Shown piece by piece: positions 15,001 through 18,000 of a DNA stretch of 64,000 bases. Source of the DNA: Escherichia coli O157:H7 (GTDB taxonomy: Bacteria > Pseudomonadota > Gammaproteobacteria > Enterobacterales > Enterobacteriaceae); the NCBI RefSeq assembly GCF_013167455.1, contig NZ_CP038328.1. One strand, given 5' to 3'. Numbering within the stretch: the stretch's first letter is position 1; each line of letters starts with the position of its first letter. The position numbers were made by a program.

Positions 15001-18000
15001 AGCCACCTAACGATCTGATAAATGCCGATATATCTCTAACCACTCCTGGTTTGTAAAGATTTCGAAAATCTAACCTTCTGCGAAGGCGTAAATCTCTGGC
15101 TACAAAAAAGGCAACGGCAATATCATTTTTTAACAATGAAACAACAAATTAACCTTGTTTCATTTTCTCCATGATTTTACCAGGAAGATTACGTAGAAAG
15201 GGTATCCTGCAAGCCTGTCCTGGACTATCCTTGTCACGTCAGACACGCGTGTGTCGTTGTGCGCTTTTTTTGGGTGAAAGGAGTAAGAAAATGGCGACAG
15301 GAAAGTCCTGCTCTCGCTGGTTTGCGCCTCTTGCGGCGTTATTAATGGTAGTTAGCCTGAGTGGGTGTTTTGATAAAGAAGGCGATCAGCGTAAAGCGTT
15401 TATCGACTTCCTGCAGAATACAGTGATGCGTAGCGGTGAACGTCTACCAACCCTGACTGCCGATCAGAAAAAACAGTTTGGTCCTTTTGTCTCTGATTAC
15501 GCGATTCTGTATGGTTATTCTCAGCAGGTGAATCAGGCGATGGATTCCGGTCTGCGCCCGGTTGTAGACAGCGTTAACGCAATTCGCGTACCGCAGGATT
15601 ACGTTACGCAAAGCGGTCCGCTGCGTGAAATGAATGGTTCGCTGGGTGTGCTGGCGCAACAACTGCAAAATGCGAAGTTGCAGGCCGATGCTGCGCACTC
15701 TGCGCTAAAACAGAGTGATGACCTGAAACCGGTCTTTGATCAGGCATTCACCAAAGTGGTAACGACGCCAGCTGATGCATTGCAACCGTTGATTCCGGCG
15801 GCACAAACTTTCACGCAACAACTGGTGATGGTTGGAGACTACATTGCCCAACAAGGTACTCAGGTGAGCTTTGTAGCAAATGGCATCCAGTTCCCGACTT
15901 CACAGCAGGCAAGTGAATATAACAAACTGATTGCGCCATTACCGGCACAACATCAGGCGTTTAATCAGGCCTGGACTACAGCAGTTACTGCAACCCAATA
16001 AAGAGTAAAAGCCCGAGCGATTATCGGGCTTTACTCCACGCAGTCGCGGCTTAGTCCGCGACGTGCGGATTCACACAGTTCTTCTCAACCTTTCCTTGTA
16101 ACGCATCAATCAAATTATCCACGGCACAGGCGGCCATGCCATAACGCGTCTCATGGGTGGCAGATCCAATATGCGGTACTGCGACGACGTTGGCCATTGA
16201 GAGCAACGGCGAATCTACGGAAAGTGGCTCTTGTTCGAAGACATCCAGCCCGGCGGCGTGAATTTCCCCTTTCTGCAATGCTGCGATCAGTGCATTTTCG
16301 TCAACCACCGGGCCACGTCCGGCATTAATGAAAATGGCGGAGGATTTCATTTTGGCGAATTGTTCTGCGCCAAACAGATGATGCGTCTCATCAGTTAACG
16401 GCAGGATCAGGCAAACGAAATCTGACTCTTGTAACAGTGTATCCAAATCGCAGTAGCGGGCGTTGAAGCGTTCTTCTGCTTCTTTATGGTGGCGGCGCGC
16501 GTTATAGAGGATGGGCATGTTGAAGCCAAAGTGCGCACGTTGTGCCAGCGCCATACCGATCCGTCCCATCCCGACAATGCCCAGTGTTTTATGGTGAACG
16601 TCAGTGCCGTACCAGTCCGGGCCTATGCTCGCGGTCCATTCGCCTGCTTTTACCCGTTCTGCTACCTCCACAACCCGACGAGCGGTAGACAACACCAGCG
16701 CCATCAGCGTATCGGCGACGGTTTCTGTTAAGACGGTTGGCGTGTGCATCAGCAGAATTTTTCGGGCGGTAAGCGCATCGACATCAAAATTGTCATAGCC
16801 GACGGAGATCGTTGATGTGGCACGCAGTTTCGGCATTTTTTCCAGCAATGCGGCATCAACATTCTCGTTTGAACCCAGTAAACCTTCAGCTTCGGCAAAA
16901 ATTGCTGCATTTTGTTCGACGGTTTGTGGGCTGAGGTTTGCCACCTGGTGAACGGTGAAATGCTCTTGCAGGCGTTGCAGTAAATCATCAGGTAAGGCTT
17001 TGTAGAGGATAACGGACGGCTTCATGCTTCTCTCCATTCACTGATAAGGCGATCACCTTAGCCTGAAATATGATGAAGGAAAACTGAAGAATGCCAGGTG
17101 ATTTCTGCATCACCTGGCATGAAAGGGATTACAGCGGGCTTAAGGTAATTTCTACACGGCGGTTTTGCGCCTTACCTTCTGCGGTGCTGTTGCTGGCGAT
17201 TGGGTTAGCCGGGCCAAGGCCCTGAGTACGGATGCGGCTGGCGTCCACGCCCTGGGTGATCAACGCGCTGGCAACGGAATCCGCACGCTGCTGGGAGAGA
17301 CGCATGTTCAGATCGTGACCACCCGTGCTGTCAGTATAACCAATCACGTTAACCGCCGTTTTCGGATACTCTTTCAGCACCATTGCCACGCCGGTCAGGG
17401 TGTTAGCGCCCGCCGGTTTCAGGGTTGCGCTGCTGCTGTCGAAGGTCACATTGTTCGGCATATTGAGGATAATGTTATCCCCGCTGCGGGTTACGCTAAC
17501 ACCAGTGCCGCGCATTTTGTCACGCAGCTTCGCTTCCTGCACATCCATGTAATAACCCACGCCGCCGCCCAGAGCTGCGCCTGCTGCTGCGCCAATCAGC
17601 GCGCCTTTACCGCGATCTTTCTTCGAAGAAGAGAGCGCACCAATACCCGCGCCCACGAGAGAGCCCAGACCTGCGCCGATAGCAGATTTACCTGCTTCGC
17701 GTTCGCCGGTGTAAGGGTTAGTTGTGCAGCCAGATACCGCCAGAGCGCCACTCACTACGGCGGCAATAAGATAAACACGTTTCTTCATTGTTAATCCTTA
17801 ATAACCTTTTTATTCTTTGCCACGGGTTCCGTGGCGGGAGATTATGCCGCGTGAACATGAAGATTATTCCTGGGAATACTCGGAAATTTGTAAGTAATAT
17901 TTAACTGCTCAATACATCTAACCTTTCAGGAGTCTTCGGTTTGACCAACTCATCCTCACGATATTCCGTTCTGACTGCCGCCCATTGGGGGCCCATGCTG

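What the first reader, a model, noticed from the sequence alone, without database searches (positions are those of the whole stretch)
15243..15271. Perfect 10-bp palindrome followed by a T7 tract just upstream of yiaF
acacgcgtgt (15243..15252) is a perfect palindrome and is followed within 12 bp by GCGC and TTTTTTT, ending 20 bp before the yiaF start codon. It could be a regulator-binding site or an attenuator-like element in the yiaF leader.
Basis: seen in the sequence. Interest (0 to 1): 0.15.

Follow-up and report, generated by a model that had tools for sequence, protein, structure and literature searches.

The report
Conserved yiaF mRNA leader, not terminator
The palindrome and T-run lie in the first 34 bases of the E. 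coli yiaF messenger RNA, where a small conserved hairpin and a U-rich stretch that can cover the ribosome-binding site probably tune mRNA stability and translation; this is an ordinary, previously undescribed leader element rather than a terminator.

Summary
The sequence is exactly as described: acacgcgtgt 15243-15252, GCGC 15261-15264, T7 15265-15271, yiaF ATG 15291. A perfect 10-bp palindrome is not unusual here (56 in the window, 73±10 in shuffles).

The region is functional. Published TSS data place the yiaF start 53 nt upstream of the ATG (G15238), so the element is +5..+34 of a 53-nt 5' UTR. About 110 nt upstream of yiaF are conserved across 80 Enterobacteriaceae species, well above 4-fold-degenerate sites.

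It is a 5-bp stem with a variable tetraloop (GACAC-gcgt-GTGTC, 15242-15255). Other genera have GGCAC/GTGCC or GGCAC/GTGTC, so the G-C, G·U and A-U states all keep the pair.

UGCGC-U7 is complementary to the Shine-Dalgarno region GAAAGGAGUA. Folding the real transcript leaves the SD only 11% unpaired; 1.2% of shuffled leaders are that low.

The terminator-like stem next to the T-run is weak (-3.2 kcal/mol), overlaps the stronger hairpin, shows no covariation, and no leader 3' end is listed in the Term-seq files I could search.

Best reading: a 5'-proximal hairpin plus a weak anti-SD element. A DNA operator at +5..+18 is not excluded. Interest is low.

The parts
15226..15231 (+). Inferred -10 hexamer TATCCT of the yiaF promoter. 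It sits inside the near-invariant block CTGGACTATCCTTGT (15220-15234). There is no recognisable -35 (TATCCT at 15203-15208 with a 17-bp spacer).
   Evidence: The hexamer lies 7 nt upstream of the mapped TSS. The block has pairwise identity 0.99 across 80 species, against 0.55 at 4-fold sites. The hexamer assignment is an inference.
15238..15238 (+). Transcription start site of yiaF (G, +1), giving a 53-nt 5' UTR.
   Evidence: Supplementary file 6 of PMC10469882 gives a start-codon-to-TSS distance of 53 in K-12 (RegulonDB 10.5). It gives 53, 76 and 84 in O157:H7 EDL933 Cappable-seq. The same table gives cspA 160, which matches the 5' end of the Rfam cspA model in this window, so the distance equals UTR length.
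15242..15255 (+). 5'-proximal hairpin at +5..+18: GACAC - GCGU - GUGUC, a 5-bp stem with a tetraloop.
   Evidence: Energy -6.2 kcal/mol, with pairing probability at least 0.93 from 15 to 45 °C in the real transcript. 95.8% of cells are paired across 57 distinct orthologous sequences, against 24-73% when the partner is slid. Pair 17-28 is GC 36, GU 12, AU 7. The loop varies: GCGT, GTGT, ACGT, GCGG, GCAT, TTGT, GAGT, ACGA.
15243..15252 (.). It overlaps the hairpin but is in a register offset by one base.
   Evidence: Present as described, at chance frequency, and not conserved in this register.
15247..15264 (+). Terminator-like stem GCGUGUG-UCGU-UGUGCGC abutting the T-run. Considered and rejected.
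   Evidence: Flagged by the consensus scan, which found 5 sites in 1.6 kb against 1.6±1.4 expected. Energy -3.2 kcal/mol. 87.9% paired against 87.8% in shuffles, with 272 of 500 shuffles as high. It shares bases 15247-15255 with the hairpin.
15260..15271 (+). UGCGC-U7 segment (+23..+34), a candidate anti-Shine-Dalgarno strand.
   Evidence: Pairwise identity is 0.95 for GCGC and 0.85 for the U-run, against 0.55 at 4-fold sites. In the folds it pairs with 15276-15285, either as C27-G44/U28-32:G39-G43 plus U23-A48/G24·U47/C25-G46, or in the -5.1 kcal/mol register.
15276..15285 (+). Shine-Dalgarno region GAAAGGAGUA (AGGAG at 15279-15283). It is the partner strand of the U-run, and the UA after the SD is also conserved.
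   Evidence: Identity is 0.92 for AAAGGAG and 0.92 for UA. The probability that the SD is unpaired is 0.11 at 37 °C, against a mean of 0.58 when the upstream 38 nt are shuffled; 1.2% of shuffles are as low.
15291..16001 (+). yiaF coding sequence (236 aa plus stop). It encodes a DUF3053 lipoprotein with the signal peptide MATGKSCSRWFAPLAALLMVVSLSGC.
   Evidence: ORF list, RefSeq annotation and Pfam PF11254 on homologues. The in-frame upstream ATG at 15171 (the old 276-aa form) is not supported, because 1-nt indels in relatives break that frame.

Best explanation
The palindrome and T-run are parts of the 53-nt 5' untranslated leader of the monocistronic yiaF mRNA, and they act at the RNA level.

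Shown:
- Transcription starts at G15238, 4 nt before the element.
- The leader is under purifying selection in core Enterobacteriaceae.
- A 5-bp/tetraloop hairpin (15242-15255) is kept by compensatory and wobble changes while its loop drifts.

Inferred:
1. The hairpin sits only 4 nt from the 5' end, so it acts as a 5'-proximal stem-loop. By analogy with the ompA-type 5' stem-loop, it would slow 5'-end-dependent decay (RppH/RNase E).
2. The downstream UGCGC-U7 strand pairs with GAAAGGAGUA and forms a weak (about -5 kcal/mol) U:A/U·G helix that partly occludes the Shine-Dalgarno sequence. This is fourU-like architecture. It would damp translation initiation of this Cpx-inducible lipoprotein, or make it conditional, for example on temperature or a bound factor.

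The element is not a transcription terminator.
For: - TSS: 53 nt upstream of the ATG in both K-12 and EDL933.
- Conservation across species: pairwise identity is 0.91 for the 5' arm, 0.82 for the 3' arm, 0.95 for GCGC, 0.85 for the U-run and 0.92 for the SD and the following UA. The hairpin loop is 0.70 and 4-fold-degenerate yiaF sites are 0.55. Alignment is lost beyond about -110.
- Conservation within E. coli: the 68 nt from the -10 hexamer to the ATG are ≥99% identical (which for 68 nt means identical) in 5308 of 5319 matched genomes. Of the 5422 genomes that match the whole 473-nt spacer, 3383 are ≥99% identical.
- Hairpin: 95.8% paired, with 0 of 500 shuffles as high and slid controls at 73% or less. 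Pair 17-28 is GC 36, GU 12, AU 7. A-U appears in Escherichia, Phytobacter massiliensis and K. grimontii. Pairing probability in the real transcript is at least 0.93.
- Anti-SD: the SD is 0.11 unpaired at 37 °C, and only 1.2% of leaders with a shuffled upstream part are as low. The median over 56 distinct orthologous leaders is 0.26. RNAalifold with RIBOSUM scoring returns both helices.
- Not coding: 1-nt indels occur in relatives.
Against: - Overall folding energy is no better than shuffles (z = +0.07, +0.58 and -0.59).
- The tool's RNAalifold run predicted no consensus pairs. Default local alifold gave only 4 of 5 hairpin pairs at -1.05 kcal/mol.
- The U-run:SD helix has no covariation, because both strands are simply conserved.
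- The SD is predicted to be mostly open (0.5-0.8) in the Citrobacter freundii group (ATTTTT) and in Kosakonia (TTTTAT).
- More distant orthologues lose the hairpin and/or the U-run: Cronobacter, Shimwellia, Mangrovibacter and L082.
- The predicted SD opening between 15 and 45 °C is small, 0.06 to 0.16.
- The 5' arm is more conserved than pairing alone requires.
- Four unpaired 5' nucleotides may be enough for RppH to act (my own knowledge).
- There is no experimental structure, half-life or translation data.
Confidence: 0.5

Rival explanations
1. DNA operator. The inverted repeat GRCAC-N4-GTGYC at +5..+18 binds a dimeric transcription factor that represses yiaF by blocking promoter escape. One candidate is the divergently encoded XRE-family HTH protein YiaG.
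For: Conserved arms with a variable 4-bp spacer is also the classic signature of an operator. Some genera carry a perfect 14-bp palindrome, GGCACACGTGTGCC (L021, L023, L059, L075, L081). The 5' arm is more conserved (0.91) than RNA pairing requires. An HTH gene lies divergently upstream in many species. yiaF transcription is regulated: it rises 5.9-fold on CpxR overproduction.
Against: All intermediate states are G·U-compatible (GGCAC/GTGTC, 12 distinct sequences) and none is A·C. That asymmetry is expected for RNA and not for DNA, though it rests on only about 3 independent lineages. The repeat is kept in about 24 of the fetched loci with no yiaG homologue detected within the sequence fetched upstream of yiaF, including Klebsiella, Raoultella, Kluyvera and Pseudocitrobacter. 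There is only one copy in the 64-kb window, against 0.24 expected by chance. No known factor motif was recognised: sigma-54, sigma-E and CpxR were checked by eye and.
Confidence: 0.15
2. The U-run works as single-stranded RNA rather than as an anti-SD strand. It would be a U-rich ribosomal protein S1 binding site (translation enhancer) or an Hfq contact site just upstream of the SD. The hairpin would serve only as a 5' cap or a structural spacer.
For: The U-run lies immediately 5' of the SD and is conserved (0.85). U-rich tracts upstream of the SD are established S1-dependent enhancers (my own knowledge). Variants such as AUUUUU and UUUUAU remain U-rich while predicted SD pairing drops. That fits a sequence requirement better than a pairing requirement.
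Against: This does not explain the very high conservation of the flanking GCGC (0.95) and of the UA after the SD (0.92). Both are partners in the predicted helix. No sRNA chimeras involve the yiaF leader in the Hfq-CLASH supplements, which hold only single CDS hybrids.
Confidence: 0.2
3. Intrinsic terminator or attenuator. GCGUGUG-UCGU-UGUGCGC followed by U7 prematurely terminates yiaF transcripts at about +34. The overlapping 5' hairpin acts as an antiterminator.
For: The consensus scan flags 15247-15264 plus TTTTTTT as terminator-like. The two stems are mutually exclusive, as in attenuators. The three G-C pairs at the base of the stem, next to the U-run, are mostly kept.
Against: The stem is 3 G-C plus 4 G·U pairs at -3.2 kcal/mol, against -6.2 for the competing hairpin, which is also transcribed first. 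There is no signal over shuffles: 87.9% against 87.8% paired, with 272 of 500 shuffles as high, and pair 26-33 is broken in 21 of 57 sequences. The scan over-calls (5 found, 1.6 expected). The held Term-seq supplements list only an antisense site for yiaF. Rfam has no match. Cronobacter keeps a hairpin but has no U-run.
Confidence: 0.05
4. No discrete element. The palindrome and T-run are incidental features of a leader that is conserved only because of promoter-proximal and ribosome-binding constraints.
For: The palindrome is at chance frequency. Folding z-scores are near 0. The tool's alifold run finds nothing. The GT/AC-rich sequence allows several alternative pairings by chance.
Against: Conservation of GCGC, the U-run and both hairpin arms equals or approaches that of the SD and far exceeds neutral sites. 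The compensatory A-U pair in Escherichia and the low SD accessibility relative to shuffles also argue against it.
Confidence: 0.1

Closest known systems
fourU-type RNA thermometers and anti-SD hairpins (Salmonella agsA, Salmonella/E. coli htrA, Yersinia lcrF); recalled from the literature, not tested here
   Same: A run of at least four U in the 5' UTR pairs with AGGA of the Shine-Dalgarno sequence. The hairpin is short and weak, made of A-U and G·U pairs. The gene belongs to an envelope-stress context: yiaF is induced by CpxR overproduction.
   Different: No temperature dependence has been shown, and the predicted melting between 15 and 45 °C is small. The helix is not predicted in all orthologues, it shows no covariation, and Rfam has no family match.
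5'-terminal stabilising stem-loops of E. coli mRNAs (ompA 5' UTR type); my own knowledge
   Same: A small stable hairpin lies within a few nucleotides of the triphosphorylated 5' end of a monocistronic envelope-protein mRNA.
   Different: Four unpaired 5' nucleotides are at the upper limit for protection. The stem has only 5 bp, and no half-life data exist.
Intrinsic (Rho-independent) terminators and leader attenuators
   Same: A stem-loop is followed by a run of seven U. An overlapping alternative hairpin is present.
   Different: The stem abutting the U-run is G·U-rich and weak, is not conserved as a pair set, and has no mapped 3' end. The strong hairpin is 9 nt away from the U-run.
Promoter-proximal inverted-repeat operators of XRE/HTH repressors
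   Same: The 5-N4-5 inverted repeat has conserved arms and a variable spacer. It lies at +5..+18, next to a divergent HTH gene (yiaG).
   Different: No cognate factor or second site is known. The substitutions follow RNA wobble rules. The repeat persists where yiaG is not adjacent.

Membership tests
Intrinsic terminator / attenuator | A G+C-rich stem of at least about 5-6 bp ending 0-2 nt before the U-run, with a substantial hairpin energy. | tested here: not met
   The only stem abutting U7 has 3 G-C and 4 G·U pairs at -3.2 kcal/mol. The stable hairpin (-6.2 kcal/mol) ends 9 nt before the U-run.
Intrinsic terminator / attenuator | The terminator stem is maintained in relatives through conservation or covariation. 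| tested here: not met
   87.9% paired against 87.8% in shuffles (272 of 500 as high). Pair 26-33 is unpaired in 21 of 57 sequences.
Intrinsic terminator / attenuator | An RNA 3' end maps at the U-run. | tested here: inconclusive
   The held supplements of the E. coli Term-seq study (PMC7815308) list only an antisense site for yiaF. Raw data could not be inspected.
fourU RNA thermometer | Four or more consecutive U in the 5' UTR pair with the SD (AGGA) of the same transcript. | tested here: met
   The TSS at 15238 places U7 in the leader. Folds pair U28-U32/34 with G39-G44/A45. The SD is 0.11 unpaired, and 1.2% of shuffles are as low. This is prediction only.
fourU RNA thermometer | The helix melts and translation rises with temperature. 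| not testable with these tools
   In silico, the SD unpaired probability rises only from 0.06 at 15 °C to 0.16 at 45 °C. This needs reporter fusions, toeprinting or probing.
fourU RNA thermometer | The pairing potential is conserved in orthologues. | tested here: inconclusive
   The median SD unpaired probability is 0.26 over 56 distinct leaders. It is 0.5-0.8 in the C. freundii group and Kosakonia, and the U-run is absent in Cronobacter.
5'-terminal stabilising stem-loop | A hairpin lies within about 2-4 nt of the mRNA 5' end. | tested here: met
   The TSS is at 15238 and the stem starts at 15242, leaving 4 unpaired nt. This depends on the TSS being accurate to ±1 nt.
5'-terminal stabilising stem-loop | The hairpin prolongs mRNA half-life. 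| not testable with these tools
   This needs rifampicin chase experiments with stem mutants.
Transcription-factor operator (inverted repeat) | Symmetric half-sites are conserved with a fixed spacing. | tested here: met
   GRCAC-N4-GTGYC is present at a fixed position in about 70 of 81 sequences.
Transcription-factor operator (inverted repeat) | A cognate factor is identified, there are further sites, or there is co-occurrence with the regulator gene. | tested here: not met
   The repeat is a single copy in the window. It is retained in about 24 of the fetched loci with no yiaG homologue detected upstream. No binding data exist.
Rfam RNA families | A match to any curated covariance model. | tested here: not met
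   No hit at E ≤ 1 overlaps 15200-15300. Only cspA, sok and weak chance hits lie elsewhere.

The most novel reading that the evidence does not exclude
The yiaF leader is an undescribed riboregulator conserved in core Enterobacteriaceae. A 5' hairpin and a fourU-like UGCGC-U7 anti-SD helix would make translation of this Cpx-inducible lipoprotein, which has been implicated in colonisation resistance, conditional on temperature or on a bound factor.
Probability: 0.2. Interest if true: 0.35.

Novelty: new member of a known kind. Interest (0 to 1): 0.15.

Why it matters
yiaF encodes a poorly understood envelope lipoprotein. It was the second-ranked entry in the CpxR-overproduction table (PMC2731931) and contributes to resistance of commensal E. 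coli to colonisation by pathogens (PMC3646849). Knowing that its 53-nt leader carries conserved RNA features gives a concrete, cheap handle for testing post-transcriptional control of the gene: point mutants in 15242-15271. Beyond that, this is a routine example of a structured bacterial 5' UTR.

Tried and rejected
- Rfam at a permissive threshold gave nothing at the site.
- The tool's RNAalifold run on the 81-sequence alignment predicted no pairs. Local reruns depended on the scoring scheme.
- The terminator stem was rejected on energy and covariation.
- Coding or uORF reading: the GTG at 15249 and the ATG at 15171 are in frame with yiaF, but 1-nt indels in relatives break the frame.
- Promoter types were checked by eye. 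Sigma-54 (GG-N10-GC) is off by one base in Klebsiella and Enterobacter, and the GG is absent in E. coli. The sigma-E and sigma-32 spacings do not fit.
- CpxR box GTAAA-N5-GTAAA: no site with one mismatch or fewer anywhere in the spacer, and none in the conserved block.
- sRNA targeting of the leader: the RIL-seq supplements are not held. Hfq-CLASH shows only single hybrids in the CDS.
- Independent TSS confirmation was sought in the Cappable-seq, ROSE, Shigella and Kim 2012 supplements. No yiaF entry was found in the held text.
- The Yersinia plasma study shows only small changes in yiaF mRNA level and says nothing about the leader.
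Full report
**Observation.** The window is E. coli O157:H7 (100% match). 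The stretch lies in the 433-bp divergent spacer between yiaG (14567-14857, minus strand) and yiaF (ATG 15291, plus strand).
- acacgcgtgt at 15243-15252, a perfect palindrome
- GCGC at 15261-15264
- T7 at 15265-15271
- AGGAG at 15279-15283

A perfect 10-bp palindrome is not remarkable. The window holds 56 of them, against 73±10 in dinucleotide-preserving shuffles. A palindrome with a T7 within 20 nt occurs once, against 0.33 expected.

**Position relative to the transcript.** Supplementary file 6 of PMC10469882 lists the distance from start codon to TSS. For yiaF it gives 53 in K-12 (RegulonDB 10.5) and 53, 76 and 84 in EDL933 Cappable-seq. The same table gives cspA 160, which matches the 5' end of the Rfam cspA model in this window, so the distance equals UTR length. 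The main TSS is therefore G15238, preceded by TATCCT at 15226-15231 as the -10 hexamer.

**Conservation.** I fetched 80 yiaF loci from different Enterobacteriaceae species and aligned the upstream regions.
- About 110 nt before the ATG align across genera. Further upstream the alignment is lost.
- The neutral yardstick is pairwise identity at 50 four-fold-degenerate yiaF sites, which is 0.55.
- Against that, the leader scores 0.91 (5' arm), 0.70 (loop), 0.82 (3' arm), 0.70 (spacer), 0.95 (GCGC), 0.85 (U-run), 0.92 (AAAGGAG) and 0.92 (the following UA).
- Within E. coli, the 68 nt from the -10 hexamer to the ATG are ≥99% identical (for 68 nt, identical) in 5308 of 5319 matched genomes.
- One-nucleotide indels in relatives rule out the old 276-aa N-terminal extension and any in-frame uORF.

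**What is actually conserved.** It is a 5-N4-5 inverted repeat shifted by one base: GACAC-GCGT-GTGTC at 15242-15255.
- Most genera have GGCAC-NNNN-GTGCC.
- The Citrobacter freundii group, Salmonella arizonae, Klebsiella and Raoultella have GGCAC/GTGTC, which keeps a G·U pair.
- Escherichia, Phytobacter massiliensis and K. grimontii have GACAC/GTGTC, an A-U pair.
- The four central bases drift freely: GCGT, GTGT, ACGT, GCGG, GCAT, TTGT, GAGT, ACGA.
- Formally, 95.8% of cells pair (0 of 500 shuffles as high), against 73% or less with the partner slid. Pair 17-28 is GC 36, GU 12, AU 7.
- Folding the real transcript gives this hairpin a probability of at least 0.93 and an energy of -6.2 kcal/mol.

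**The T-run.**
- The only stem that abuts it is GCGUGUG/UGUGCGC, the one flagged by the scan. It has 3 G-C and 4 G·U pairs and an energy of -3.2 kcal/mol. It shares nine bases with the stronger hairpin, which is transcribed first, and it shows no signal over shuffles.
- The held Term-seq supplements list no 3' end in the yiaF leader. Rfam has no match. I therefore reject the terminator/attenuator reading (about 5%).
- Instead, UGCGC-U7 is complementary to GAAAGGAGUA. Folds of the real transcript pair them in two nearby registers, one of which scores -5.1 kcal/mol.
- The SD is left 0.11 unpaired at 37 °C. Shuffling the upstream 38 nt gives a mean of 0.58, and only 1.2% of shuffles are as low.
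- This pairing would explain why GCGC and the UA after the SD are as conserved as the SD itself.
- The caveats are real. There is no covariation. Predicted SD opening with temperature is small. The SD is predicted to be mostly open in the C. freundii group and Kosakonia. More distant orthologues (Cronobacter, Shimwellia, Mangrovibacter, L082) lose the hairpin and/or the U-run. Global folding z-scores are near zero, and RNAalifold results depend on the scoring.

**Rivals.**
- A DNA operator at +5..+18 fits the pattern of conserved arms and a variable spacer, and a divergent HTH gene (yiaG) is a candidate. Against it, all intermediates follow wobble rules (no A·C), the repeat persists in about 24 loci with no yiaG homologue detected upstream, and it is single-copy in the window. 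I give it about 15%.
- The U-run could act as a single-stranded S1 or Hfq site (about 20%).
- There could be no discrete function at all (about 10%).

**Context.** yiaF rises 5.9-fold (7.7-fold by qRT-PCR) on CpxR overproduction. I found no CpxR box. yiaF forms a single-gene transcript and affects colonisation resistance.

**Verdict.** This is a real, conserved but ordinary 5' UTR element: a 5'-proximal hairpin plus a probable weak anti-SD strand. It has not been described before, is of a known kind, and has low interest. The palindrome that prompted the finding is incidental.

Noticed in passing
window 15220-15234 (and 15200-15212): The block CTGGACTATCCTTGT around the inferred -10 hexamer is essentially invariant across 80 species (identity 0.99), far more than a -10 hexamer requires. 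There is no usable -35. GGTATCYTGC at about -38..-29 is also conserved. TATCCTG (15203-15209) and TATCCTTG (15226-15233) form a direct repeat 23 bp apart. This suggests an activator-dependent or otherwise unusual promoter. yiaF responds to CpxR overproduction, but no CpxR box was found.
   Followed up: partly
window 15171-15290: An in-frame ATG at 15171 gives the old 276-aa form of YiaF. One-nucleotide indels in relatives break this frame, and the lipoprotein signal peptide starts at the 15291 ATG. Public protein sets still hold inconsistent N-terminally extended calls, for example P0001 (319 aa), P0024 (283 aa) and P0012 (244 aa).
   Followed up: partly
window 15207 and 15215 (+): EDL933 Cappable-seq lists two further yiaF TSSs, 84 and 76 nt upstream of the ATG, that are not listed for K-12. 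Transcripts from them would include the -10 block in the leader.
   Followed up: no
window about 15396 (-), inside the yiaF CDS: The Term-seq/bicyclomycin supplement of PMC7815308 lists a site antisense to yiaF at K-12 coordinate 3718677 (+), about 105 nt into the CDS. This implies an antisense transcript, apparently Rho-dependent, running towards the yiaF 5' end.
   Followed up: no
window 16008-16032 (-): A strong terminator-like hairpin, AAAGCCCGATAATCGCTCGGGCTTT, lies in the short convergent gap between yiaF (ends 16001) and ghrB (16051-17037, minus strand). It is probably a shared or bidirectional terminator.
   Followed up: no
window 14019-14446 (-) and 13585-13736 (+): There are full-length Rfam matches to the cspA thermoregulator (498 bits) and to the sok antitoxin RNA of the hokA/sokA locus (119.6 bits). 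In K-12 an IS150 sits next to hokA.
   Followed up: no
window about 15930-15950 (yiaF CDS 3' part): Hfq-CLASH supplements list a single ArcZ-yiaF hybrid (predicted -20.4 kcal/mol) and a fklB-yiaF hybrid. I placed the ArcZ fragment in the 3' part of the CDS only by eye, from its resemblance to the sequence encoding LIAPLPAQHQAF; it was not aligned to the window, so the coordinates are approximate. Neither hybrid is in the leader.
   Followed up: no
L085 (Cronobacter sakazakii) 470-600: In Cronobacter the leader has a different hairpin, GCACAC-N8-GTGTGC, which uses the conserved GTGTGCGC block as its 3' arm, and it has no U-run. A hok gene lies upstream of yiaF and no yiaG homologue was detected. 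In several Enterobacter-type leaders the same alternative pairing (GCACGC/GUGUGC) competes with the GGCAC/GUGCC hairpin.
   Followed up: partly
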